Shown: positions 1,483-63,100 of the stretch, one piece after another
Numbering within the stretch: position 1 is the first letter of the stretch
Layout: each line of letters opens with the position of its first letter
NCBI GenBank assembly: GCA_040768165.1
Contig: JAXGNH010000010.1
Coordinates: 120,590-184,589, forward strand
Length of the DNA: 64,000 nucleotides
Direction of reading: 5' to 3'
Source of the DNA: Anaerolineae bacterium
Lineage (GTDB): Bacteria; Chloroflexota; Anaerolineae; UBA1429
The notes under the pieces: generated by a model
Databases searched by the model: none
The model's input: only the letters and a program-made list of their open reading frames with translations
Told to the model about the DNA's origin: nothing
Position numbers and translations under genes: made by a program

Positions 1483-1675
1483 CTTGCCCTTACCACGTGG
1501 AGTGGGAATGCGGCCTTCTTTCATCCGGACTATACCGTCGGCTCCAGCGTCACTGGATCTGCCATTACTGGCTCGCGGGCTGGGCGGCTCACGCCGCCAC
1601 ACCGCCGATCGGGAATTGGCCCCTGAGGGAGCCTCACCCTGCCCCGAAGGCTGTTCGATTGTGAAATCTGGCTCG

Positions 1676-3324: not shown

Positions 3325-3340
3325 ACGACGCGGGCGGGTC

Positions 3341-3537
3341 CCGGTTGCGGGTTCCGGGTTTCGGGTTATGTATTGTGGGTTGTGGGTTACTGGAGTCGCG
3401 CGCCGGTCGGATGACGGTTACAGGTTCCAGGTTGCAGGTACCAGGCAAGCGTGGGGTCACTCGCTAGAGTCTGGAACCTGTCACCTGGGACCTGCAACGC
3501 CCGGCTCTAGTAACCCACAACCCACAACGCACAACCC
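3341..3537. repeat. Family A nested palindrome (GGGTTNN outer arms, CAGGTNN inner arms)
   Basis: Outer arms are gggttccgggtttcgggttat..gtgggttgtgggttac versus gtaacccacaacccacaacgcacaaccc. Inner arms are 3417-3445 versus 3471-3497. Confidence 0.9.
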
Positions 3538-3548
3538 TCCACCGGGTG

Positions 3549-7831: not shown

Positions 7832-7929
7832 GGAACGCGGATGAACGCGGATCATACGGATCAACGCGGATTCTCTACTATATGATCCTATCCGTGTTAG
7901 TCCGCATAATCCGTGTTCATCCGCGTTCC
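7832..7929. repeat. Family B palindromic element (NNACGCGGAT decamer arms)
   Basis: ggaacgcggatgaacgcggatcatacggatcaacgcggat ... atccgtgttagtccgcataatccgtgttcatccgcgttcc. Confidence 0.9.
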
Positions 7930-11088: not shown

Positions 11089-11253
11089 GGAACGCGGATG
11101 AACGCGGATGGAACGGATTAGCGCGGATTTCTCTTTTTTACGCAGAGAACAGAGACCGTAGAGTAGTGGTATGAACGCGTTGTCTCTGCGATCTCTGCGG
11201 TAAAGGGGTCTTGATCCGCGTTGATCCGATCCATCCGCGTTTATCCGCGTTCC
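11089..11253. repeat. Family B palindromic element with inserted CTCTGCG-type inner palindrome
   Basis: Outer arms are ggaacgcggatgaacgcggatggaacggat / atccgatccatccgcgtttatccgcgttcc. Inner arms are tacgcagagaacagagac / gtctctgcgatctctgcggta. Confidence 0.85.
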
Positions 11254-12483: not shown

Positions 12484-12527
12484 GGGCGGGGTTGCGGGTG
12501 TGGGTTGTGCGTTGTGTGTTGTGGGTG
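12484..12527. repeat. Family A half element (GGGTTNN-type arm only)
   Basis: gggcggggttgcgggtgtgggttgtgcgttgtgtgttgtgggtg. Confidence 0.6.
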
Positions 12528-18689: not shown

Positions 18690-18786
18690 GGAACGCGGAT
18701 GAACGCGGATCATACGGATTTTCGCGGATTGGTTTGCATGTCGTCAGATCCGCGTCAATCCGCAGAATCCGCGTTCATCCGCGTTC
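18690..18786. repeat. Family B palindromic element
   Basis: ggaacgcggatgaacgcggatcatacggat ... atccgcagaatccgcgttcatccgcgttc. Confidence 0.9.
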
Positions 18787-18829
18787 TATCCCCTTTGTCT
18801 ACGGACGGGTGTGCCGGTAGAATGGGGGC

Positions 18830-23867: not shown

Positions 23868-23874
23868 CGGCGCG

Positions 23875-24048
23875 ATTGCGGGTTACGGGTTGTGCGTTGC
23901 GCGTTGTGCGTTCATCGTTCGCGTATAGTGGGTTGCAGGTGACAGGCTCTCGCGCGTTCATACGCCAAAGCCTGTAACCTGCAACCTGTTCCTTGTCACA
24001 GCCCCTCCGTCCCGCAACTCATAACCCGCAACCCATGACGCACAGCCC
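23875..24048. repeat. Family A nested palindrome
   Basis: gcgggttacgggttgtgcg..gggttgcaggtgacaggct ... agcctgtaacctgcaacctgt..ataacccgcaaccc. Confidence 0.9.
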
Positions 24049-26723: not shown

Positions 26724-26895
26724 TGGGTCGTGAGTTATGGGTTGTGGGTTGGTTGATCGCGCGCAGCTGACTACGTAACAGGTGACAGGTTGCAGGTTGC
26801 AGGCTACAGCGGGTCTACGCGCTAGAGCCTGTGACCTGCAACCTGTTACCTGTAACAGCCCATCCATCCCGGAACCCGCGCCTCGCAACCCACAA
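26724..26895. repeat. Family A nested palindrome
   Basis: tatgggttgtgggttgg..gtaacaggtgacaggttgcaggttgcaggct ... agcctgtgacctgcaacctgttacctgtaac..gcaacccacaa. Confidence 0.9.
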
Positions 26896-30786: not shown

Positions 30787-30951
30787 GAACGCGGATGCAC
30801 GCGGATGGGGCGGATTTACGCGGATTCATACGGGAACTAACCAGAGGGCCGTGACCGCAGAGCAGAGGGCTTTTACGCAATCTCTGCGGCATCTACGGTA
30901 AGACCCTAACCGATCCGCGCTGATCCGCCAAATCCGCGTGCATCCGCGTTC
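30787..30951. repeat. Family B palindromic element with inner CTCTGCG-type block
   Basis: gaacgcggatgcacgcggatggggcggatttacgcggat ... atccgcgctgatccgccaaatccgcgtgcatccgcgttc. Confidence 0.85.
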
Positions 30952-31021: not shown

Positions 31022-31447
31022 ATGGGTCGAATCATCAACACTGCCAGCCCCGGGAGCGAGCGCAACCGGCTGCGACGCACCATCGCCGAGATTCTGCGGC
31101 ACCTGATGTTCAAGCGCGGCGTGGACGATGAGGTGAAGGACATGACGGCGACCCTCGTGTTCGCGCTACGCGGCATCGCCGAGTCGGTGGAGGTGACCAC
31201 CGACGCCTGGGAGAAGCGCGACTACTATGTGAAGGCGGATCGCTTCCGCCTCGACTGGGAGTGGGTGACGCCGGCGGCGCGCCGCCTCGCGGCGCTGGTC
31301 CGCGAGGACCGCTGGCAGGACCTCCCGAGCGAGTTGGCGGCCCTGGCGCCCCGCTTTGGCGATATCCGCATCGCCAAGATGACGCGCGCCCCCTCTATCT
31401 GGGCGTCGGGCTATGAAACGCTGATGCAGGAGAAGGCGGGGGCGTAG
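31022..31447 (+). CDS. Hypothetical protein (141 aa), no recognisable domain
   Basis: ORF with its own promoter and coding-like composition. Confidence 0.5.
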   Translation: MGRIINTASPGSERNRLRRTIAEILRHLMFKRGVDDEVKDMTATLVFALRGIAESVEVTTDAWEKRDYYVKADRFRLDWEWVTPAARRLAALVREDRWQDLPSELAALAPRFGDIRIAKMTRAPSIWASGYETLMQEKAGA

Positions 31448-31458
31448 CGGGCGGAGCG

Positions 31459-31603
31459 CCGGTTGCGGGTTGCGAGCCGGAAGGGCGGTTGCAGGGCCCA
31501 GGTGGCAGGTTACAGGGTCTAGGGCGCCCCATCGTCTCGGGTCTGTAACCTGCAACCTGTCACCTGTACCAACTCTGCCGGCCCGGAACCCGGAACTCGC
31601 AAC
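31459..31603. repeat. Family A nested palindrome
   Basis: ccggttgcgggttgcg..ggcaggttacagggtc ... gtctgtaacctgcaacctgtcacctgt..cggaactcgcaac. Confidence 0.85.
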
Positions 31604-31629: not shown

Positions 31630-33213
31630 ATGACGTCGCAGCCCCAACAGAACGCCGCAGCATCCATCGACGTCGAGGCGCCGATCTCGGCCGTGACGGT
31701 GTATCGGCGCGGCGCCCGCGTCACGCGCACGGGGCGCGTCGATGTGCTGCCCGGCGCCGTGGAACTCGCCCTGCGAGGCCTGCCGGCGTCGCTGGCGGCC
31801 GATTCGGTGCGCGCCCGAGGGCGCGGCTCGGCGGAGGCGCGGCTGCTGGGGGTGGATGTACGCCGCGCGTTCTATGCCCAGCCGGCGCAGGCGACGGTGC
31901 AGGCGCTCGGTCGCCAACTGCGCGAGCTAGAGGAGCAACAGCGGGCGCTGTCATTGCGCCGCGAGGCGGCGGAGGCCAACCGCACCCTGCTGTCGAACCT
32001 GGCGGCCTCGGCCGGACGGCAGTTGGCGCGGGCCATGGCACAGGGCCAGGCGAGGTCGGCCGAGGGCTTGGCTATCATCTTCTTTGTGCGCGAGCAGTTC
32101 GAGACGGCCAACGAGCGGCTCCTGGCGGTGGACCGGGAGGAACGGCACCTGCAGGATCGCATCGCGCAGGTGCGCGCCGAGCTAGAGAACGTCAGCGGGG
32201 GCGCGGACCGCGAGGGGTACGACGTGATCGTGGCGCTGGAGGCGAACAGCGCCGACACGCTGGAACTCGAGGTGACCTACAACGTCCCCAACGCCTCTTG
32301 GACGCCGCTCTACGACCTGCGCCTGTTCGAGGCGGAGGACGGACCCCGGATCGAGGCGACCTACCTGGCGGAGGTGTCGCAGCGCTCGGGTGAGGCGTGG
32401 GACGACGTGTCCCTGACCCTCTCCACGGCGCGTCCGGCCGGCGGGGAGCGGGTGCCAGAACTGCGTCCCTGGATCATCCGCACGGAGCTGCCGCCCATGC
32501 CGGCGCCCATGGCTCGGCGGGAGATGGGTGACATGGCGCTCCCCGCGATGGCCATGGAGGAGTCGGCCCCCCTGGAGGCGGAGGTCTCCAGCGACGGCCC
32601 CGCCGTCACCTTCCGCGTGCCCCGGCGGGCCTCGGTGCCGGGCGACGGCGGCCCACACAAGGCGACCATCGCCCGCCTCGACCTGATGTCAACCCTCGAC
32701 TATGTGACCGCTCCCAAGTTGGACGCGACGGCCTACCGCCGTGCTCGGGTGACGAACGCCAGCGCCTACGTGTTCCTCCCGGGGCGGGCGAATGTCTTTT
32801 GGGGGGACGAGTTCGTGGGGCGTGCCGCCCTCGAGACGGTGGCGCCCGGACAGACGTTCGAGCTGTCGCTGGGCGCCGACGATCGCGTCACCGTCAAGCG
32901 TGAGCCCGTCGCGCGGGGCGCCGACAAGGCGCTGCTGCGCGATGTGCGGCGCTCGCGCTACGGCTATGCCATCACCGTCACCAACCTCACCGGCGCGCCG
33001 CAGACGGTGGTGGTGCGCGACCAGATCCCCGTATCGACGAGCGAGCGCGTCACGGTGCGCCTCGATGAGGCCGACCCCCCGCCAAAAGAAAAGAGCGCGA
33101 TGGGCCTGCTAGAGTGGGAGTTGGCGCTGGACGCCGGTCAGGAGCAGATCATCACCTTCCTCTTTGTCGTGGAGCAGCCCCGCGACGTCACGGTGTACGG
33201 CCTGCCGGATTGA
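31630..33213 (+). CDS. DUF4139/DUF4140-family protein (mucoidy-inhibitor MuiA-like conserved hypothetical)
   Basis: An N-terminal beta-rich region, a central coiled coil (LRELEEQQRALSLRREAAEANRTLL) and a C-terminal DUF4139-like region. Assignment is from memory. Confidence 0.55.
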   Translation: MTSQPQQNAAASIDVEAPISAVTVYRRGARVTRTGRVDVLPGAVELALRGLPASLAADSVRARGRGSAEARLLGVDVRRAFYAQPAQATVQALGRQLRELEEQQRALSLRREAAEANRTLLSNLAASAGRQLARAMAQGQARSAEGLAIIFFVREQFETANERLLAVDREERHLQDRIAQVRAELENVSGGADREGYDVIVALEANSADTLELEVTYNVPNASWTPLYDLRLFEAEDGPRIEATYLAEVSQRSGEAWDDVSLTLSTARPAGGERVPELRPWIIRTELPPMPAPMARREMGDMALPAMAMEESAPLEAEVSSDGPAVTFRVPRRASVPGDGGPHKATIARLDLMSTLDYVTAPKLDATAYRRARVTNASAYVFLPGRANVFWGDEFVGRAALETVAPGQTFELSLGADDRVTVKREPVARGADKALLRDVRRSRYGYAITVTNLTGAPQTVVVRDQIPVSTSERVTVRLDEADPPPKEKSAMGLLEWELALDAGQEQIITFLFVVEQPRDVTVYGLPD

Positions 33214-33243: not shown

Positions 33244-33282
33244 CACGCGGATTTCGCGGATCGAACGCGGATTTTGCGGATC
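33244..33282. repeat. Family B half element
   Basis: cacgcggatttcgcggatcgaacgcggattttgcggatc. Confidence 0.6.
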
Positions 33283-33417
33283 TTTCTGGTTGCTTTATTG
33301 GTGAATTTGATCGTATCTCTTCCTGCTAACCCACCCCAAGCATCCCTCCAACATCCATACGTCGGGTTGCAGAGGCGCCAAGGGCGCAGATTCTGCCGTC
33401 GTGGAGGAGGTGTCCTC

Positions 33418-34377
33418 ATGGGAGCGTTGAACGGTCGGGTTGCCGTCGTGGCAGGGGCCACGCGGGGGGCGGGACGCGGCATTGCCGTGTCGCTGGGCGA
33501 GGCGGGGGCGACGGTCTATTGCACCGGCCGCAGCGTGCGCGGCCGGCCCGCCGGCAGTCGCCCGGAGACCATCGACGAGACGGCCGAGATGGTGAGCGCT
33601 CGCGGTGGCGTGGGGATCGCCATGCGTGTGGACCACAGCGAGCCGGAGGAGGTGCGCGCCCTCGCCGAGCGGGTACGCGTCGAGCAGGGCCGCCTCGATG
33701 TGCTGGTCAACGACATCTGGGGCGGCGATGAACTCACCGCCTGGGACAAACCCTTCTGGGAGCACTCGCTGGAGGACGGCCTGCTCATGCAGCGCCGCGC
33801 GGTGCATACCCACATCATCACCAGCCACTCCCTGGCGCCGCTGATGGTGGCGCGCGGCGCCGGCCTCATCATCGAGATCACCGACGGCGACAGCCTCGAC
33901 TATTACCGGGGCAACCTCTACTACGACCTCGCCAAGGTCTGCGCCATTCGCCTGGCCTACGCCATGGCGCAGGAACTCGAGCCGCACCACGTCACCGCGG
34001 TGGCCCTCACGCCGGGATTCTTGCGGTCGGAGGCGATGCTCGACTATTTCGGCGTCGCCGAGGCGAACTGGCGGGATGCGGCGGCCCAGGAACCCTCATT
34101 CGCCGGCTCCGAGACCCCCTACTACATCGGGCGGGCGGTGGCGGCGCTGGCGTCGGACCCCGACGTGTTTCGCTACACCGGGCTGACCTTGAGCACCTGG
34201 AACCTGGCCAGGGAGTACGGCTTTACCGACGTGGACGGCTCCCAGCCCTACTGGCCCGACTACTATGAGCCCGCGAGGCGGGAGGAGCCGGATCGCGAGG
34301 GGGACCTGGATCGCGAAGCGGATTTGGATCGCGAAAACTCGAAGGGGGCGAAAGACGCGAAAGGGGCTACGCCGTAG
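33418..34377 (+). CDS. SDR-family oxidoreductase with repeat-encoded acidic/basic C-terminal tail
   Basis: ATG 33418 after GGAGGAGG. VAGATRGAGRG and the YYDLAK catalytic motif. The tail EEPDREGDLDREADLDRENSKGAKDAKGATP is encoded by a GATCGCGAA-type repeat block. Confidence 0.8.
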   Translation: MGALNGRVAVVAGATRGAGRGIAVSLGEAGATVYCTGRSVRGRPAGSRPETIDETAEMVSARGGVGIAMRVDHSEPEEVRALAERVRVEQGRLDVLVNDIWGGDELTAWDKPFWEHSLEDGLLMQRRAVHTHIITSHSLAPLMVARGAGLIIEITDGDSLDYYRGNLYYDLAKVCAIRLAYAMAQELEPHHVTAVALTPGFLRSEAMLDYFGVAEANWRDAAAQEPSFAGSETPYYIGRAVAALASDPDVFRYTGLTLSTWNLAREYGFTDVDGSQPYWPDYYEPARREEPDREGDLDREADLDRENSKGAKDAKGATP

Positions 34378-34454
34378 CGCCGCCGCCCGCCGCGGGCCAG
34401 AGTTCGGTGCTCGCGTCGCAATGCCCGCCTGTGCACGCTGCGATAGCGCATGAT

Positions 34455-34775
34455 GCTGTAGGGTCCGCACGCTGTGCGGAAGGCGACGCGCTGTGCGTGG
34501 CCTGCCTGTCTCCTTGGGCGCCGCGAGCCAAAGCTCGGTAGCGCGCGATGCTGTAGGGTCCGCACGCTGTGCGGAAGGCGACGCGCTGTGCGTGGCTTGC
34601 CTGTCTCCTTGGGCGCCGCGAGCTAAGGCTCGGTAGCGCGATGCTGTAGGGTCCGCACGCTGTGCGGAAGGCGACGCGCTGTGCGTGGCCTGCCTGTCTC
34701 CTTGGGCGCCGCGAGCTAAAGCTCGGTAGCGCGATGCTGTAGGGGCCGCACGCTGTGCGGACCGCCGCTCGATGG
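34455..34775. repeat. Tandem array (about 3.4 x 93-95 bp) of GTAGGG-headed REP-like units
   Basis: Unit starts gctgtagggtccgcacgctgtgcgga at 34455, 34550, 34643 and 34736. Confidence 0.9.
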
Positions 34776-34807
34776 TCGGCATACATCGTAGATGGGGGGA
34801 ACGCACC

Positions 34808-35947
34808 ATGGCCGGACGCATTTTCGCCATTCAGAAGGATGGAACGCTGCACCCCATGACCGAGGCGCCCTATGCCGACGAAGACCTGTTCCAGCGTCTC
34901 CTGTCGGACTATCCCGACCTGCTGGTGGGCGAACAGGTCAACGAGGAGGCCCCGCGCCGATGGATGCTCGTCTCGCGCGAGGTGGGCGTGCCCCTGGAGG
35001 CGGAGGGCGGCGACACGTTCTCGGTGGATCACCTCTTTCTCGATCAGGACGGTGTGCCCACGCTCGTCGAGGTCAAGCGCAGCAGCGACCATCGCATCCG
35101 CCGGGAGGTGGTGGGGCAGATGCTCGACTATGCCGCCCATGCGGTGGCGCATTGGCGCCCTGATGCCATCAGAACGCGGTTCGAGGGTCAGTGTGCGCAG
35201 GGCGGCGCCGACCCCATGGCGCAGGTGGCGGAGTTGATTGATGCCGACCCCAGCGACGAGGAGGCGGTCGAGGAGTACTGGTCGCAGGTGGGCACGAACC
35301 TGCGGGCGGGCCGCATTCGCCTCATGTTCGTTGCCGATGTGATTGGCGGCGAGTTGCGCCGCGTTATCGAGTTCCTGAACCGCTTTATGGACCCCGTCGA
35401 GGTGCTGGGCGTCGAGATCCGCCAGTACCAGGGACGCGGCCTGCGGACGCTCGTGCCGCGCCTCGTGGGGCAGACCATGGCGACGCAGGGAAAAGCGGGC
35501 ACGAGCGCCGCCAAGCGCCAATGGGACGAGGAATCGTACTTCCGTGAACTCGAGGAGCGCCGTGGCCCCGACGAGGCGCGCGTCGCGAGGGCGATCCTGG
35601 AATGGGCAAAGCCGCGCGTGACGCGTGTCTGGTGGGGACGAGGCCAGGACGGGAACTTTGTGCCGACCCTGGATCACCATGGGAGAAAGCACCAAGTCTT
35701 TGGTGTCGTGACACGCGGAGTGGTGGACATCTACTTCCTCCCATATTCATACAAGCCGCCCTTTAGCGCTGAGAGCAAGAGGCTCGACCTTCTCGAGAGG
35801 CTGAACACCATCCCTGGGGTCTCTATCTCCAGGGAGAGTATCAGGAGGTATCCCAAGATCCGGCTGGCGACTCTGCTGGACGAGAAGGTTCTACAGCAGT
35901 TTCTTGCCGTATACGATTGGTACCTGGACGAGGTGCGCAAGACCTAA
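34808..35947 (+). CDS. PD-(D/E)xK nuclease-fold protein (NucS/DUF91-like core) with uncharacterised C-terminal half
   Basis: ATG 34808 (MAGRIFAIQ). Core is FSVDHLFLDQDGVPTLVEVKRSSD..REVVGQMLDYAA (D ... E-V-K). Confidence 0.6.
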   Translation: MAGRIFAIQKDGTLHPMTEAPYADEDLFQRLLSDYPDLLVGEQVNEEAPRRWMLVSREVGVPLEAEGGDTFSVDHLFLDQDGVPTLVEVKRSSDHRIRREVVGQMLDYAAHAVAHWRPDAIRTRFEGQCAQGGADPMAQVAELIDADPSDEEAVEEYWSQVGTNLRAGRIRLMFVADVIGGELRRVIEFLNRFMDPVEVLGVEIRQYQGRGLRTLVPRLVGQTMATQGKAGTSAAKRQWDEESYFRELEERRGPDEARVARAILEWAKPRVTRVWWGRGQDGNFVPTLDHHGRKHQVFGVVTRGVVDIYFLPYSYKPPFSAESKRLDLLERLNTIPGVSISRESIRRYPKIRLATLLDEKVLQQFLAVYDWYLDEVRKT

Positions 35948-36015
35948 CCCCGGGCGAGGGGTGGCGCGGGCGGAACCTTGCCTGGCAGGCGCAGGAGCTC
36001 GGTCAGCGCGCCGGC

Positions 36016-36042
36016 GGTCCGCACAGCGTGCGGACCCTACAG
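36016..36042. repeat. Inverted copy of the GTAGGG-TCCGCAC REP unit
   Basis: ggtccgcacagcgtgcggaccctacag is the reverse complement of the unit core at 34455-34775. Confidence 0.85.
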
Positions 36043-36211
36043 TACCGCGCCCCTAGCCTGCGCAGGCAGGCTTTGCAGGGCTAGCGCCGGGCCTCGGCCC
36101 GCGGCGTGTGCGGGCGTGTGAGGACCCTACGGCCCGCGATGCGTCTCCTTTCGCCCATTTCGCGCTTTCGCGATCCAAACGCCCCTGTGATCCAGGCGTC
36201 CCGCGTCCCCG

Positions 36212-36252
36212 ACACACAAACCGGGCTCCGGAGATTATCCTCTGAAGCCCGG
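36212..36252 (-). terminator. Intrinsic terminator after the FAH-family gene
   Basis: Minus strand reads ccgggcttcagaggataatctccggagcccgg followed by tttgtgtgt. Confidence 0.6.
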
Positions 36253-36273
36253 TGTCTGTTCCGGTACGCCTAG

Positions 36274-37191
36274 CTACTCTGCCGGCAATTCGATCACCGG
36301 GTTGCTCAGCGTGCCGAGCCCCTCGACGGTGATCTCGACGACGTCGCCGTCCGAGAGGGTGAAGGTGTCGGGCGGGACGATGCCCGTGCCTGTCATCACG
36401 AACACGCCATTAGGGAAGCTGTTGCAGCGCGCCAGGTAGCGCACCAGTTCCGTCAGCTTGCGATGGATGTGCGCCGTGCTCGTCTCGCCGGTGAACCCCG
36501 GCCGGCCGTCGCGGTAGATGGTGCACGACACCGGCAGCGCCAGGGGGTCGAACCCCTCGGTGGCCAGGCGTACCCACGGGCCCAGGGCGCAGCAGCGGTC
36601 GTACACCTTGGCCTGGGGCAGGTAGAGGGGGTTCTGCCCCTCGATGTCGCGGGAACTCATATCGTTGCCCACGGTGTACCCCGCGATCTCCATGGTGGGG
36701 GTGACCATCAGGGTTAGCTCCGCCTCGGGCACGTCCCACTGGGAATCGGCGCGGATCGCCACCGCCTCGCCGGGGCCCACCACGCGATGGGGCGTGGCCT
36801 TGAAGAAAATCTCGGGGCGCGGCGCCTCGTACACCCGGCCATAGATGGTCGGCTCGTTCGACTCGCGCATGCGCGCCTCGCGGCTCATCTCGTACGTCAC
36901 GCCGCAGGCCCACACCTCCTGGGTATCGAGGGGGGCGAGCACAAAGGGCGCGTTTGCGGGGTCGATGAGCGCCTCGGCGGAGGAGACGGCCTTGGCGGCG
37001 CCGGGCACCTGGGCGAGTTCGGCGATGGCCTGGGGCACGCGCCCCGCGGCGGCCTTGAGCCAGGCATCGAGGCTGGCGTATTCGGGACGGCCGAGCGCGG
37101 TGAGGTCATAGAGCCTGCCTTTGGCCACCAGGCCAAGGCGCACGTCGACCGCGGTCGTCTTGAAGCGGCAGAGGGAGAGATCGTTGGACAC
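36274..37191 (-). CDS. Fumarylacetoacetate hydrolase (FAH)-family enzyme, 2-keto-3-deoxy-sugar-acid dehydratase-like
   Basis: GTG start after AAGGAGG. FAH-fold motifs (EAELTLMV, GNDMSSRD, GTGIVPP). Confidence 0.7.
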   Translation of the reverse strand: MSNDLSLCRFKTTAVDVRLGLVAKGRLYDLTALGRPEYASLDAWLKAAAGRVPQAIAELAQVPGAAKAVSSAEALIDPANAPFVLAPLDTQEVWACGVTYEMSREARMRESNEPTIYGRVYEAPRPEIFFKATPHRVVGPGEAVAIRADSQWDVPEAELTLMVTPTMEIAGYTVGNDMSSRDIEGQNPLYLPQAKVYDRCCALGPWVRLATEGFDPLALPVSCTIYRDGRPGFTGETSTAHIHRKLTELVRYLARCNSFPNGVFVMTGTGIVPPDTFTLSDGDVVEITVEGLGTLSNPVIELPAE

Positions 37192-41593: not shown

Positions 41594-41721
41594 GTTGCAG
41601 GTTACAGGGGACAGGTTACAGGCCCTAGTGAACGACCCCCGTAGAGACTGTAACCTGCAATCCGACTTGGTAGCCCGTAACTCGTAACCCACAACTCGCC
41701 TATGACCTGCTACCTGTAACC
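41594..41721. repeat. Family A palindromic element
   Basis: gttgcaggttacaggggacaggttacaggcc ... gactgtaacctgcaatcc .. acctgctacctgtaacc. Confidence 0.8.
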
Positions 41722-48389: not shown

Positions 48390-48408
48390 GGAGTGACGGG
48401 CCCCGGCA

Positions 48409-48735
48409 TGTAGGGGCCGGACGCCGTCCGGCCCGCGCTGCGCGTATGGCCCACCCACGCTCGTCACGCGGCGCGCACCGGCGTGCGCGCCCTACACGGC
48501 GCTCGGTCGACATGCGTGCGGGGCATCGGCGTTTCCCGCTCCGCCGATGTAGGGGCCGGACGCTGTCCGGCCCGCGCTGCGCGCATGGCCCACCCACGCT
48601 CGTCACGCGGCGCGCACCGGCGTGCGCGCCCTACACGGTGCTCGGTCGACATGCGTGCGGGGCACCGGCGTTTCCCGCTCCGCCGATGGAGGGGCCGGAC
48701 GCCGTCCGGCCCGCGGCGCGGGGATCGGGGCGTTC
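48409..48735. repeat. Tandem array (about 2.3 x 139-140 bp), each unit carrying two GTAGGG-headed hairpins in opposite orientation
   Basis: Unit starts gtaggggccggacgc(c/t)gtccggcc at 48409 and 48549, and a ggagggg variant at 48688. Each unit has an internal ggcgcgcaccggcgtgcgcgccctac. Confidence 0.9.
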
Positions 48736-57403: not shown

Positions 57404-57547
57404 AGGGAACGCGGATGGACGCGGATTCAACGGATGAACACGGATCTCTATGGATGCCATGTCAGAGGGATAGAAGGGTGACCCAGTGCTCGGCGTGTCA
57501 GGGATCCATACCTCGGATCCGCGCCCATCCGCCTGACGCGTTCCCTC
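57404..57547. repeat. Family B palindromic element (degenerate)
   Basis: agggaacgcggatggacgcggattcaacggatgaacacggat ... ggatccgcgcccatccgcctgacgcgttccct. Confidence 0.8.
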
Positions 57548-61271: not shown

Positions 61272-61376
61272 CGATGGTACGCGGATTACGCAGATGGAAC
61301 GCTGATCAACGCAGATTATGGGGATTAGAAATCAGCGGAGATCTGCGTTGAACCAGCGGAATCTGCGTACTATCAG
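61272..61376. repeat. Family B-variant palindrome
   Basis: cgatggtacgcggattacgcagatggaacgctgatcaacgcagat ... atctgcgttgaaccagcggaatctgcgtactatc. Confidence 0.8.
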
Positions 61377-61423: not shown

Positions 61424-61795
61424 ATGGAAGCACGTGCTATCGTTCTCGACGCCGAGGGGCGTACCCTCTCGCCCTGCCCCGCGGACAAGGCGCGGCGCCT
61501 GGTGGCCCAGGGGCGCGCCGAGGTCGTCCGCGACGACCCCCTGACCATCCGCCTGACGCGCTCCGTCACCATCCCCGCGCCCACGCGTAGGGGCGACCGG
61601 CGGGTCGCCCAGGACCCTGCGCCCACGCGTAGGGGCGACCGGTGGGTCGCCCAGGACCCGGCACCCAGGCGTAGGGGCGACCGGTCGCCCAGAACCCGGC
61701 CATCGCGACGGTGGGCGACCGGCCGGTCGCCCAGGACCCGGCACCCACGCGTAGGGGCGACCGGCGGTCGCCCAGGACCCGGCACCCAGGCGTAG
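61424..61795 (+). CDS. Small ORF whose first 50 aa resemble the RRXRR/PLMP N-terminal domain of HNH/IscB-type nucleases. The remainder is translated REP array.
   Basis: MEARAIVLDAEGRTLSPCPADKARRLVAQGRAEVVRDDPLTIRLTRSV follows the pattern V.VLD..G.PL.PC.P.KAR.LL..G.A.VV...PFTI.L. The ORF then runs into 42-bp repeats and stops at a repeat TAG. Confidence 0.45.
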   Translation: MEARAIVLDAEGRTLSPCPADKARRLVAQGRAEVVRDDPLTIRLTRSVTIPAPTRRGDRRVAQDPAPTRRGDRWVAQDPAPRRRGDRSPRTRPSRRWATGRSPRTRHPRVGATGGRPGPGTQA

Positions 61796-62028
61796 GGGCG
61801 ACCGCGGGTCGCCCAGAACCCGGCCATCGCGACGGTGGGCGACCGGGTCGCCCAGGACCCGGCACCCAGGCGTAGGGGCGACCGGCGGGTCGCCCAGGAC
61901 CCGGCACCCAGGCGTAGGGGCGACCGGCGAGTCGCCCAGGACCCGGCGCCCACGCGTAGGGGCGACCGGCGGGTCGCCCAGGACCCGGCCATCGCGACGG
62001 TGGGCGACCGGCCGGTCGCCCCTACGAA
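61585..62028. repeat. Tandem array of 11 REP-like units (36-44 bp), each with hairpin GGGCGACC-N2-6-GGTCGCCC
   Basis: Two head types alternate, GCGTAGGGGCGACC and GCGACGGTGGGCGACC. The last unit closes as ggtcgcccctac. Confidence 0.95.
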
Positions 62029-62572
62029 GGTCGGCGAACGCCTGCTGCTGCACATCTGCTGCGGCCCTTGCGCGACGTACACCGTGGCCCACCTGCGCGG
62101 GCTGGGGTACGAGGTGACGGGCTACTGGTTCGGCCCCAATATCCACCCCTTCAGCGAGCACGAGCGCCGCCGCGAGGCGCTGGAGACGCTGGCCGCCGAT
62201 ATCGACCTGCCGGTGATCTGGGAGCCCGGGTATGAGATGCCCGAGTTCCTGCGCCTGGTGGCCGGCACCCCCGAGCGCCCGGCGCGCTGCCGCATCTGCT
62301 ACCGGATGCGCCTGGCGCGCACGGCCCGCGTCGCTGCGGCGGGCGGGTTCGACGCCTTTTCCACGACGCTGCTCATCAGCCCCTATCAGGACCTGGACGC
62401 CATCCGCGAGATCGGCGCGGAGGAGGGGGACGCCCAGCGCGTGCGGTTTTACTTTGAGAACCTGCGCAAGGGGTTCGCCGAGCACCATCGCCTGGCCCGC
62501 GAGCACGGGCTGTACATGCAGCGCTACTGCGGGTGCGTGTATAGCGAGTGGGAGGGGTTGCGGGGGAGGTGA
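62000..62572 (+). CDS. queH: Epoxyqueuosine reductase QueH (DUF208)
   Basis: LLLHICCGPCA, RCRICY, STTLLISPYQ, YCGCVYSE. The start is uncertain: GTG 62000 lies inside the last repeat unit, and the conserved core begins near 62040. Confidence 0.8.
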   Translation: MGDRPVAPTKVGERLLLHICCGPCATYTVAHLRGLGYEVTGYWFGPNIHPFSEHERRREALETLAADIDLPVIWEPGYEMPEFLRLVAGTPERPARCRICYRMRLARTARVAAAGGFDAFSTTLLISPYQDLDAIREIGAEEGDAQRVRFYFENLRKGFAEHHRLAREHGLYMQRYCGCVYSEWEGLRGR

Positions 62573-63072: not shown

Positions 63073-63100
63073 GTAGGGGCGACCGGCCGGTCGCCCCTAC
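63073..63100. repeat. Single canonical GTAGGG-headed REP hairpin
   Basis: gtaggggcgaccggccggtcgcccctac, a perfect palindrome. Its CTA supplies the stop codon of the radical-SAM gene. Confidence 0.9.

What the first reader, a model, noticed from the sequence alone, without database searches (positions are those of the whole stretch)
34285..36180. Single nuclease-fold gene bracketed by a symmetric, two-layer inverted repeat structure: cassette-like insertion between two metabolic genes
The order is [GATCGCGAA-type block 34285-34365] [3.4 tandem GTAGGG-TCCGCAC units 34455-34775] [gene 34808-35947] [one inverted GTAGGG-TCCGCAC unit 36016-36042, plus a partial one at 36118-36132] [inverted GATCGCGAA-type block 36133-36180]. 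Both repeat layers are mirrored around the gene, as with terminal inverted repeats of a mobile cassette. The gene encodes a 379-aa protein with a PD-(D/E)xK core (VDHLFLDQDGVPTLVEVKRSSD, NucS/DUF91-like). Its C-terminal half is unassignable and its last 250 nt are visibly AT-richer than the surroundings. Flanking genes (SDR, FAH hydrolase) are unrelated metabolism. GTAG-headed REPs are normally mobilised by RAYT (Y1-HUH) transposases. A PD-(D/E)xK nuclease sitting inside a REP doublet would be a different association, possibly a REP-linked homing or defence nuclease.
Basis: partly seen in the sequence, partly recalled or inferred. Interest (0 to 1): 0.7.

Follow-up and report, generated by a model that had tools for sequence, protein, structure and literature searches.

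The report
Ordinary REP repeats flanking nuclease gene
The mirrored repeats around this gene are real, but they belong to repeat families scattered through this bacterium's intergenic DNA, and the gene is a long-standing resident nuclease of an uncharacterised, probably defence-related family, not a recently inserted mobile cassette.

Summary
A 3.3-copy 93-nt tandem array of GTAGGG-hairpin (REP) units and a GGATCGCGAA block lie left of a 379-aa gene, and both are mirrored on its right. The interpretation mostly fails.

- **The repeats are not specific to this gene.** The same REP core occurs at about 11 other loci of same-sample contigs, next to housekeeping genes and never next to this nuclease. 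The outer block also recurs elsewhere as a tight palindrome.
- **The right-hand repeats belong with the FAH gene.** In relatives, right REP, outer block and terminator stay with FAH whether or not the nuclease is present.
- **The nuclease is an old resident.** It sits at the same locus, between a conserved 141-aa gene and FAH, in at least three related Anaerolineae. It is about as diverged (74-83% aa) as its neighbours (78-87%).
- **Gene content there varies.** The site is empty in a distant relative, and one close relative carries a REP-mediated deletion.
- **The link to REPs is local.** 29 homologue loci (about 300 kb) hold no such REPs.

The protein has a RecB/NucS-like PD-(D/E)xK domain plus a conserved C-terminal domain with no solved relative. 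It matches the untested PADLOC candidate PDC-S11 and sits beside BREX, Hma and Mokosh-like genes elsewhere. Interest is low to moderate.

The parts
33415..34377 (+). SDR (short-chain dehydrogenase) gene. Its last ~30 codons (from ~34290) are read from the repeat block.
   Evidence: Pfam adh_short / adh_short_C2. Homologues are 289-295 aa, and homology ends at residue 285 of 320.
34290..34367 (+). Module A, the 'outer block': GGATCGCGAA units with period 18, followed by CGAAAG-type units.
   Evidence: TRF rows 34290-34335 and 34331-34367. 88% complementary to 36148-36179. The same module forms a tight palindrome with a ~55-nt spacer in L098 and L096.
34368..34451 (+). Degenerate REP (GTAGCGCCGCC...) plus spacer. 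This is the middle part of the left composite arm.
   Evidence: 62-nt arm 34378-34439 is 71% complementary to 36055-36116. Arm alignment.
34452..34767 (+). Tandem array of 93-95-nt units, each starting with a GTAGGG-headed REP hairpin. REP heads are at 34458, 34553, 34646 and 34739.
   Evidence: TRF period 93, 3.3 copies, 96% matches. REP scan. DNA fold. The same-species contig L001 is 188 bp shorter here, two units fewer.
34808..35947 (+). 379-aa stand-alone nuclease. N-terminal RecB/NucS-like PD-(D/E)xK domain (aa 1-222), disordered linker (223-236), conserved C-terminal domain (239-379) with no solved relative.
   Evidence: ORF. AF2 pLDDT 87.8, C-domain alone 97.5. Foldseek top hits NucS/EndoMS, probability 0.97-0.99. 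Invariant D79/E88/K90/Q104. PADLOC PDC-S11 E=3.6e-11. No Pfam, NCBIfam or PHROG hit.
36013..36042 (-). Inverted REP (R'): CGGCGGTCCGCACAGCGTGCGGACCCTACAG.
   Evidence: 100% complementary to 34456-34480. An identical 30 nt lies next to FAH in L132 and in L135, which lacks the nuclease. L005 has a diverged copy with two compensatory stem changes.
36043..36132 (-). Spacer with the GCCTGCCTGCGCAGGC hairpin and a degenerate inverted REP (36105-36132).
   Evidence: A marginal Rfam CRISPR-DR28 hit at 36054-36077 (35.4 bits against a cut-off of 35) is judged a chance match to the palindrome.
36143..36180 (-). Module A', the inverted outer block: CTTTCGCCCATTTCGCGCTTTCGCGATCC.
   Evidence: pair I5. Present next to FAH in L132 and truncated in L135.
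36220..36253 (-). Terminator-like hairpin downstream of FAH: ACCGGGCTCCGGAG...CTCTGAAGCCCGGT.
   Evidence: Read from the sequence. Conserved in L005, L132 and L135.
36274..37191 (-). FAA-hydrolase family gene (FAH), convergent with the nuclease gene.
   Evidence: Pfam FAA_hydrolase. ABC-FAH synteny is conserved in relatives.
31022..31447 (+). Conserved 141-aa gene (P141). It marks the left edge of the variable stretch that holds DUF4139, SDR and the nuclease.
   Evidence: P141 lies 68 nt from FAH in L139, directly before the nuclease in L133 and L137, and before DUF4139 in L138 and L135.

Best explanation
The repeats are members of two genome-wide intergenic repeat families of this Anaerolineae bacterium, arranged in mosaic, much like the BIME clusters of E. 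coli.
- One family is made of GTAG-type REP hairpins (R).
- The other is a 'GGATCGCGAAAG...CGAAAG' periodic block (A).

The modules lie co-oriented with the gene they follow. The (+) modules follow the (+) gene on the left: SDR here, the 141-aa gene in L137. The (-) modules R'-A'-terminator follow FAH. Because those outer genes converge, the modules mirror each other around whatever lies between them.

What lies between is a single-copy, vertically inherited nuclease gene. It has occupied this stretch between the 141-aa gene and FAH since before these species split. The stretch gains and loses genes, and the REPs take part in that turnover through copy-number change and one REP-microhomology deletion. 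They do not carry the gene.

The protein itself is most likely a Mg2+-dependent RecB/NucS-like DNA endonuclease. Its conserved C-terminal domain probably binds DNA or senses a signal. Its family behaves like a stand-alone anti-phage or anti-MGE defence gene.

*Shown:* repeat dispersal, synteny, fold, catalytic motifs, defence neighbourhoods.
*Inferred:* nuclease activity, the defence role, any role of the REPs in transcript ends.
For: **Dispersal of the repeats**
- The REP core GTAGGGNCCGCACGCTGTGCGG was found in 21 stretches, about 11 distinct loci beyond this one. They come from the same samples, with the same GC (0.66-0.72) and similar coverage.
- tblastn finds the nuclease only in the three stretches that are this locus.
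- REP-adjacent genes elsewhere are IMP cyclohydrolase, ribosomal protein S4, HPPK, a PPIase, rhomboid, URO-D and others.
- The window holds 22 GTAGG-hairpin REPs at 5 intergenic sites.
- Module A/A' and the composite R'-spacer-A' arm recur in L096 and L098 at about 68% identity over 190 nt, co-oriented with the adjacent genes.

**Synteny in relatives**
- L139: P141, 68 nt, FAH. The site is empty.
- L005: P141, an R'-like unit, terminator, FAH.
- L135 (FAH 93% identical): a DUF4139 remnant fused to R' at a CGGCGG(T/C)CC(G/A)CACA microhomology.
- L137: P141, R, nuclease.
- L132: R, nuclease, R', A', terminator, FAH.
- L133: P141, no REP, nuclease.
- Nuclease identity is 74-83%, against 78-87% for P141 and FAH in the species that carry it.

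**Homologues elsewhere**
- No REPs in about 300 kb of 29 loci.
- No flanking inverted repeats.
- Neighbours include HmaC, Mokosh-like and RtcR genes, SAVED-CHAT, PDC-S03, BREX-1 and Tn/PinE.

**Protein**.

**Literature**: GTAG REPs occur in Chloroflexi, lie mostly downstream of genes, and form clusters that reiterate flanking DNA (PMC3733652).
Against: - **The bracketing is unusual.** In about 210 kb sampled from this organism, this is the only place where inverted REPs bracket a single gene.
- **A REP travels with the nuclease.** A REP sits 45-70 nt upstream of the nuclease start in three species even though the upstream gene differs. That REP is linked to the nuclease's 5' flank at least as much as to the preceding gene.
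- **The locus REPs are unusually conserved.** They carry a private variant (GTAGGGT..., against GTAGGGG... elsewhere). They are far better conserved between species (30/30 nt) than the surrounding DNA (about 77%), which points to some selection or homogenisation that I cannot explain.
- **No RAYT was found.** The sampled REP loci hold none, so what propagates these REPs is unknown.
- **Module A is poorly sampled.** It was seen at only one other locus.
- **Same-genome assignment is inferred.** Placing the REP-bearing contigs in the window's genome rests on shared samples, GC and coverage.
- **No experiment.** No nuclease or defence activity has been shown for this family.
Confidence: 0.75

Rival explanations
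1. Ancient cassette-type acquisition. The nuclease gene entered the convergent P141/FAH spacer once, in an ancestor of this clade. It either landed inside a pre-existing inverted REP pair or arrived together with its two REPs. The arrangement has been inherited vertically since.
For: - The site is empty in the more distant L139, where only 68 nt separate P141 and FAH.
- R(+)-nuclease-R'(-) is conserved in the window, L132 and L137.
- The gene-specific DNA between the inner REPs is only the ORF plus about 40 nt of leader.
- The family is patchy and associated with mobile elements and defence islands elsewhere.
Against: - R' remains with FAH where the nuclease is absent (L005, L135).
- L133 has the nuclease with no upstream REP.
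- No second copy exists, and no direct repeats mark the boundaries.
- The event, if real, is old and cannot be separated from later REP colonisation.
- This rival is compatible with the best explanation for the present state. It differs only on origin.
Confidence: 0.15
2. An active or recently active mobile element. The two composite arms are terminal inverted repeats, and [A-R...nuclease...R'-A'] moves as a unit.
For: Inverted arms of about 190 nt at 70-75% identity bracket one gene.
Against: - The arms are members of dispersed families found without the gene.
- The left arm overlaps the SDR reading frame.
- The right arm is present without the gene in two relatives.
- The gene is single-copy.
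- It is syntenic across species, with divergence like that of its neighbours.
- No transposase or recombinase lies within the arms.
Confidence: 0.04
3. A REP-associated nuclease. In this clade the PD-(D/E)xK protein recognises or processes the GTAGGG hairpins, working like a RAYT, which would explain why inverted REPs flank it.
For: - The position is RAYT-like: single copy, vertically inherited, flanked by inverted REPs in three species.
- The locus REPs are highly conserved, with compensatory stem changes in L005.
- No Y1/HUH transposase was found beside ten REP-adjacent genes.
Against: - The family as a whole shows no REP association: 0 REPs in 29 loci, and no flanking inverted repeats.
- L133 lacks the upstream REP.
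- L005 and L135 keep the REP without the nuclease at this locus.
- Only about 210 kb of a multi-Mb genome was sampled, so a RAYT may simply have been missed.
- The family's neighbours elsewhere are defence systems, not repeats.
Confidence: 0.04

Closest known systems
GTAG-type REPs and their clusters (E. coli BIMEs; REPINs; GTAG families of Di Nocera et al. 2013, PMC3733652)
   Same: - GTAG(GG) head next to a 7-9 bp GC-rich stem with a 3-4 nt loop.
- Extragenic, mostly downstream of genes, with many dispersed copies.
- Occur as singletons, inverted dimers and tandem clusters that reiterate flanking DNA.
- Several stem variants coexist in one genome.
- Already reported in Chloroflexi.
   Different: - A second non-REP periodic block (A) is combined with them here.
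- No cognate RAYT has been identified.
- One inverted pair is separated by a 1.2-kb gene instead of a short spacer.
REPtron (a RAYT gene flanked by inverted REPs)
   Same: A single-copy gene bracketed by inverted REPs and inherited vertically.
   Different: - The enclosed protein is a PD-(D/E)xK nuclease, not a Y1/HUH transposase.
- Its homologues in other genomes are not flanked by repeats.
NucS/EndoMS (PDB 2vld, 5gke) and the RecB-like PD-(D/E)xK nucleases
   Same: - Best structural match (Foldseek probability 0.97-0.99).
- D...ExK and QxxxY motifs are conserved.
   Different: - No sequence-level match to Pfam NucS or to any PDB chain.
- TM-scores are low (0.2-0.33).
- It carries an extra 140-aa C-terminal domain absent from NucS.
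- There is no evidence of a mismatch-repair role.
PADLOC PDC-S11 (untested single-gene phage defence candidate from 'guilt by embedding', bioRxiv 10.1101/2024.01.29.577857)
   Same: - All 68 diverse family members hit PDC-S11 models, with a best E of 1.7e-18.
- One homologue lies beside HmaC and another beside BREX-1.
   Different: - The match covers only the N-terminal nuclease part (profile positions 12-216 of 358).
- In the window the gene has metabolic neighbours.
- No defence activity has been reported for it in the papers I could read.
Shedu (SduA)
   Same: A stand-alone PD-(D/E)xK defence nuclease with a variable accessory domain. There are weak hits to SduA_C and to PDB 8ps5.
   Different: - The hits are not significant (Pfam E >= 0.027 in 4 of 68 members; Foldseek probability 0.33).
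- The domain order is reversed, with the nuclease N-terminal here.

Membership tests
GTAG-type REP | GTAG head adjacent to a short GC-rich stem-loop | tested here: met
   GTAGGG plus a 7-9 bp perfect stem with a 3-nt loop.
GTAG-type REP | Many dispersed, mostly extragenic copies in the same genome | tested here: met
   22 in the window at 5 sites. About 11 further loci carry the identical 22-nt core. That those contigs belong to the same genome is inferred from shared samples, GC and coverage.
GTAG-type REP | Occurs as inverted dimers and tandem clusters that include flanking DNA | tested here: met
   48410-48634 (+-+-), 63073/63100, 61587-62025, L092, L102 and L111. Literature description.
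GTAG-type REP | A cognate RAYT (Y1/HUH transposase) in the genome | tested here: inconclusive
   None among ten REP-adjacent ORFs. Only about 210 kb of the genome was available.
REPtron / RAYT | Gene flanked by inverted REPs | tested here: met
   34739(+) and 36040(-). Also seen in L132 and L137.
REPtron / RAYT | The enclosed protein is a Y1/HUH tyrosine transposase | tested here: not met
   No Pfam hit of any kind. The fold and motifs are PD-(D/E)xK.
REPtron / RAYT | The repeat association holds across the protein family | tested here: not met
   0 REPs in 29 homologue loci. No flanking inverted repeats in 4 loci.
Mobile cassette / transposon with terminal inverted repeats | The inverted repeats are specific to the element | tested here: not met
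   Both layers occur elsewhere without the gene.
Mobile cassette / transposon with terminal inverted repeats | A precise empty site in relatives | tested here: not met
   L139 is empty of everything between P141 and FAH. L005 and L135 keep the right arm. No SDR-FAH junction was found.
Mobile cassette / transposon with terminal inverted repeats | More than one copy, or target-site duplication | tested here: not met
   Single copy. No direct repeat at the outer boundaries among the families.
RecB/NucS-like PD-(D/E)xK nuclease superfamily | Catalytic D...(D/E)xK motif | tested here: met
   D79, E88 and K90 are invariant in 68 sequences at 38-54% identity.
RecB/NucS-like PD-(D/E)xK nuclease superfamily | QxxxY motif in the following helix | tested here: met
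   Q104 is invariant and Y108 is at least 90% conserved. That this motif marks RecB-like nucleases is from my own knowledge.
RecB/NucS-like PD-(D/E)xK nuclease superfamily | Fold similarity to a solved member | tested here: met
   2vld and 5gke: probability 0.97-0.99, E 0.03-0.09, TM 0.2-0.33. The best viral match is Bacillus phage G Gp54, E 7e-8.
NucS/EndoMS family proper (Pfam PF01939) | Sequence match to the family model | tested here: not met
   No Pfam hit at E <= 1 for the window protein. No NucS hit among 68 members at E <= 0.1.
PADLOC PDC-S11 | Match to the PDC-S11 profile | tested here: met
   E 3.6e-11 for residues 12-250 against profile positions 12-216 of 358. 68 of 68 family members match. 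The match is partial, covering the N-terminal domain only.
PADLOC PDC-S11 | Demonstrated anti-phage activity | not testable with these tools
   The source preprint describes PDCs as untested candidates. A 2026 preprint that mentions PDC-S11 and 'NucS-like' could not be opened.
CRISPR array | Repeats separated by unique spacers | tested here: not met
   There is one marginal Rfam DR28 hit at 36054-36077. The 93-nt units are 96-99% identical over their whole length and contain no spacers.

The most novel reading that the evidence does not exclude
In this Anaerolineae clade the PD-(D/E)xK nuclease has been recruited as the enzyme that recognises or propagates the GTAGGG REPs. That would make it a non-HUH functional analogue of a RAYT. 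It would explain four things:
- the inverted REP pair around the gene is conserved across species;
- those REPs carry a private GTAGGGT variant;
- they are kept 30/30 identical while the flanks drift to about 77%;
- no RAYT was seen in the sampled REP loci.
Probability: 0.04. Interest if true: 0.8.

Novelty: new member of a known kind. Interest (0 to 1): 0.22.

Why it matters
The result is mainly a caution. In REP-rich genomes, mirrored repeats around a gene can arise simply because convergent genes each carry their own co-oriented 3' repeat modules. Such symmetry alone is not evidence of a mobile cassette.

Two smaller points have value:
- **A REP-mediated deletion.** L135 shows a concrete deletion junction formed between a REP and a chance REP-like 14-mer inside a coding gene. 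It illustrates how REPs remodel a variable stretch of genome.
- **A large uncharacterised nuclease family.** The family is large: 8,534 clusters at 50% identity at E <= 0.001, 2,392 of them at E <= 1e-30. It has no Pfam model. Its C-terminal domain is predicted with high confidence and has no solved relative. It recurs beside BREX, Hma and Mokosh-like genes. This makes it a reasonable candidate for experimental testing as a single-gene defence nuclease.

Tried and rejected
- **SDR-FAH empty site.** I searched FAH relatives in GTDB genomes. None has SDR or the nuclease next to FAH. SDR has no close relative (best 75%, in other phyla), so that junction probably never existed outside this species.
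- **L005 and L135 as 'empty sites'.** I first read them this way and then rejected it. L135 is a deletion derivative, with its junction inside DUF4139. L005 keeps the REP unit.
- **The AT-rich 3' end as a foreign segment.** Rejected, because the orthologues share the low GC. A separate oddity remains. Nucleotides 811-1080 of the window gene diverge from both orthologues (46-68%), while those two are 74-80% identical to each other.
- **CRISPR.** One marginal Rfam repeat hit with no array.
- **Identity of the C-terminal domain.** Sequence and profile searches of the PDB found nothing. Foldseek on the isolated domain gave no hit with E < 0.4. The best shape matches were the T4 MotA double-wing domain and DR2400/DUF419 (TM 0.38-0.51). 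This is a lead only.
- **Pfam on 68 members.** Only insignificant OapB and SduA_C hits.
- **Promoter and terminator scan of the locus.** Nothing useful.
- **GenBank phage genomes.** No homologue. IMG/VR has 20 distant ones.
- **A 2026 preprint.** It mentions PDC-S11 and 'NucS-like' but could not be opened.


Full report
**1. The observation**

The sequence is as described.
- TRF finds a 93-nt unit repeated 3.3 times at 34452-34761, with 96% matches.
- Each unit begins with GTAGGG followed by TCCGCAC-GCT-GTGCGGA, a perfect 7-9 bp stem with a 3-nt loop.
- On the far side of the gene, 36018-36042 is the exact reverse complement of 34456-34480.
- The innermost pair, 34729-34767 / 36012-36050, is 92% complementary over 39 nt.
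- A degenerate copy sits at 36118-36130.
- The outer GGATCGCGAA / TTCGCGATCC blocks are 88% complementary over 32 nt.
- Aligning the whole left flank with the reverse complement of the right flank shows continuous homology of about 70-75% over about 190 nt. The two 'layers' are parts of one composite arm: outer block A, a degenerate REP, a spacer, then a REP.
- The motif is over-represented: 11 matches against 2.6 expected, and 0 of 100 shuffles reach 11.

The gene, 34808-35947, is an intact 379-aa ORF flanked by an SDR gene and an FAA-hydrolase family gene (FAH).

One correction concerns the left outer block, which lies inside the SDR reading frame. SDR homologues are 289-295 aa, and similarity stops at residue 285 of this 320-aa ORF. 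The frame runs on into the repeat.

**2. Both repeat layers are dispersed families**

*In the window.* GTAGG-headed perfect hairpins occur 22 times at five intergenic sites, with several stem variants:
- 15614;
- this locus;
- 48410-48634, in alternating orientation;
- an array of about ten at 61587-62025;
- an inverted pair at 63073/63100.

*Across public metagenomes.* An exact search for GTAGGGNCCGCACGCTGTGCGG returned 21 stretches.
- All come from the three sample sets that also hold near-identical copies of this locus.
- GC is 0.66-0.72 and coverage is similar.
- Three stretches are this locus. The rest collapse to about 11 other loci.
- tblastn finds no nuclease in any of them.
- The genes beside those REPs are ordinary: IMP cyclohydrolase, ribosomal protein S4, an SDR, HPPK, a PPIase, rhomboid, URO-D, an aldo-keto reductase and a methyltransferase.

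*The outer block.* In L098 and L096 the block GGATCGCGAAAG...(CGAAAG)n and its inverse form a tight palindrome with a spacer of about 55 nt. Next to it lies a REP and a second inverse block. That REP-spacer-block composite is about 68% identical to the window's right arm over 190 nt.
- In those convergent intergenic regions the (+) modules follow the (+) gene and the (-) modules follow the (-) gene.
- The same rule fits the window. A-r-R(x3.3) follows SDR on the plus strand, and terminator-A'-r'-R' follows FAH on the minus strand.

*Layered symmetry is common here.* The window also holds (GAACGCGGAT)n...(ATCCGCGTTC)n palindromes and nested heptamer palindromes at many intergenic sites.

This behaviour matches published descriptions of GTAG REPs: downstream of genes, in dimers, and in clusters that reiterate flanking DNA, including in Chloroflexi (PMC3733652).

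**3. Comparative genomics of the locus**

The stable frame is a conserved 141-aa gene (P141, window 31022-31447, plus strand) on the left and FAH-ABC-ABC-MarR (minus strand) on the right. What lies between them differs among relatives.

| Locus | P141 identity | FAH identity | Nuclease identity | Arrangement between P141 and FAH |
|---|---|---|---|---|
| L139 | 75% | 70.5% | absent | 68 nt holding one terminator-like hairpin; empty |
| L005 | 90% | 86% | absent | One REP-like unit homologous to window 36014-36107, then terminator |
| L135 | 87% | 93% | absent | DUF4139 remnant fused to R', then truncated A' and terminator |
| L137 | 87.5% | contig ends | 83% over the first 35 aa | 55 nt, a REP, 45 nt, then the nuclease |
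| L132 | contig ends | 83% | 82% | Degenerate REP, nuclease, identical R', A', terminator |
| L133 | 78% | contig ends | 74% | 120 nt with no REP, then the nuclease, with an apparent frameshift |
| L138 | 80% | contig ends | contig ends | DUF4139 |

Details on three of these:
- **L005.** The REP-like stem differs from the window's by two compensatory double changes.
- **L135.** The DUF4139 remnant is fused directly to R'. The junction is CGGCGG(T/C)CC(G/A)CACA, which occurs both in the DUF4139 coding sequence and at the inner edge of the REP. L135 is therefore a deletion derivative of a window-like arrangement, not an empty site.
- **L132.** The R' is identical to the window's over 30 nt.

Three conclusions follow.
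1. R'-A'-terminator belongs with FAH, whether or not the nuclease is present.
2. The nuclease has been at this locus in several species, and its divergence resembles that of its neighbours. It is an old resident, not a recent arrival.
3. The stretch between P141 and FAH is a variable region where genes come and go, and REPs take part in that. The evidence is the L135 deletion and a 188-bp difference (two units) in the tandem array between the window and the same-species contig L001.

I found no junction in which SDR abuts FAH. SDR has no relative closer than 75%.

**4. The protein**

*No named family.* There are no Pfam, NCBIfam or PHROG hits and no PDB hit by sequence or profile.

*A very large family with a fixed length of about 380 aa.*
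- More than 6,750 hits in the word-indexed search.
- 8,534 clusters at 50% identity at E <= 0.001, of which 2,392 are at E <= 1e-30.
- RefSeq calls its members 'hypothetical protein'.

*Structure.*
- AlphaFold2 gives a confident two-domain model: pLDDT 87.8, with a disordered linker at 223-236.
- The best solved matches are NucS/EndoMS: 2vld and 5gke, probability 0.97-0.99, E 0.03-0.09, with low TM because of the extra domain.
- E25, E58, D74, D79, T85, E88, K90, R98, R99, Q104, W158 and R171 are invariant across 68 members at 38-54% identity, and Y108 is nearly so. This gives the D...ExK and QxxxY signature of RecB-like nucleases; the significance of that signature is from my own knowledge.
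- Modelled alone, the C-terminal 143 residues reach pLDDT 97.5. They have no significant structural neighbour. The best shape matches are the T4 MotA double-wing DNA-binding domain and DR2400/DUF419 (TM 0.38-0.51, E about 0.6-1.4).

*Defence signals.*
- The window protein and all 68 diverse members hit PADLOC's PDC-S11 models through the N-terminal domain.
- PDC systems are untested candidates found by 'guilt by embedding'.
- Homologues elsewhere sit beside HmaC, beside a Mokosh-like helicase and RtcR, beside a SAVED-CHAT protein, and beside a Uma2/PDC-S03 gene wedged between hutH and hutU.
- Others sit beside BREX-1 brxL-pglZ-pglX on a Sinorhizobium plasmid and beside PinE and Tn genes on another plasmid.
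- One lies on the opposite strand among tail genes of an apparent phage.

*No repeats around homologues.* These homologues have tight gene spacing and no flanking inverted repeats. About 300 kb of 29 homologue loci contain no GTAGG-hairpin REP.

**5. The AT-richer tail**

GC falls to 0.56-0.585 at 35600-35900. The L132 and L133 orthologues show the same fall, so it reflects the composition of this domain.

A separate oddity remains unexplained. Nucleotides 811-1080 (about aa 271-360) of the window gene are only 46-68% identical to either orthologue, while those two are 74-80% identical to each other. This patch was either replaced or evolved fast in the window lineage. The residues invariant across the C-domain alignment are all retained in the window protein.

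**6. Mechanism and what remains open**

The best-supported account has two parts.
- The repeats are ordinary REP/BIME-type intergenic modules, co-oriented with the two convergent outer genes.
- The gene between them is a vertically inherited, stand-alone RecB/NucS-like endonuclease of a defence-associated family.

Nuclease activity, the role of the C-terminal domain and any defence function are inferred, not shown.

Several points argue for caution:
- This is the only place in about 210 kb of sampled sequence where inverted REPs bracket a single gene.
- A REP sits 45-70 nt upstream of the nuclease start in three species, although the upstream gene differs.
- The REPs at this locus carry a private T variant and are 30/30 identical between species, against about 77% for the surrounding DNA.
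- No RAYT was found, though the sample is small.

These points keep alive two lesser readings: an ancient insertion of the gene into, or together with, a REP pair, and, at low probability, a lineage-specific functional link between the nuclease and the REPs.

**7. Verdict**

The nuclease fold, a possible defence role and a variable locus stand. The cassette with terminal inverted repeats and the REP-linked nuclease do not. The feature is a new member of known kinds, and its interest is low to moderate.

Noticed in passing
window 3335-3540, 26724-26880, 31455-31600; also 1716-1801, 12489-12526, 23870-23919, 41594-41622: Nested heptamer palindromes fill several intergenic regions. An outer arm (GGGTTGY)n and an inner arm (CAGGTTR)n surround a short centre, followed by mirrored (YAACCTG)n and (RCAACCC)n. 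They form a two-layer mirror structure 150-200 nt long. Function is unknown, and I know of no described family like it.
   Followed up: partly
window 7833-7928, 11089-11251, 18691-18791, 30789-30948; half-sites at 33245-33282, 57407-57445, 61273-61316: A second family of palindromes has periodic arms, (GAACGCGGAT)n ... (ATCCGCGTTC)n, with 40-100 nt between the arms. They lie between genes. The unit resembles the 'outer block' GGATCGCGAA with one base more.
   Followed up: partly
window 48408-48715, 61573-62025, 63073-63100: There are other GTAGGG-REP clusters with different stems (GCCGGAC, CGCGCAC, GCGACC). One is an alternating +-+- array with period 139. Another is an array of about ten copies with period 42/80. 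My crude gene map lets an ORF (61835-62572) run into that second array.
   Followed up: no
L135 2370-2400 versus window 32640-32660 and 36012-36026: This is a deletion junction in a close relative. The DUF4139 coding sequence (CGGCGGCCCACACA) is joined to the REP's inner edge (CGGCGGTCCGCACA). The deletion removes the rest of DUF4139 and everything up to the REP. It is a clear case of a REP taking part in a microhomology deletion.
   Followed up: yes
window 34270-34377: The SDR reading frame extends about 30 codons into the repeat block, encoding ...PDREGDLDREADLDRENSKGAKDAKGATP. Its homologues lack this tail.
   Followed up: yes
window 35618-35887 (gene nt 811-1080): A patch of the nuclease gene is 46-68% identical to both orthologues, while those two are 74-80% identical to each other. 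This points to a replaced or fast-evolving segment in the C-terminal domain.
   Followed up: partly
L089 3848-8879: In another organism a homologue of the nuclease, together with a Uma2/PDC-S03 gene, sits between hutH (aromatic lyase) and hutU (urocanase). The pair appears to have been inserted into a histidine-utilisation operon.
   Followed up: no
L133 365-1506: The orthologous nuclease in this relative matches in two reading frames that switch near nt 550. This is either a pseudogene or an assembly error.
   Followed up: no
window 1509-1655 (-): An FMN riboswitch, Rfam RF00050, at 90.1 bits.
   Followed up: no
window 36054-36077 (-): A marginal Rfam hit to CRISPR-DR28 (35.4 bits against a cut-off of 35) falls on the GCCTGCCTGCGCAGGC hairpin of the right arm. 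There is no array, so I judge it a chance match.
   Followed up: yes
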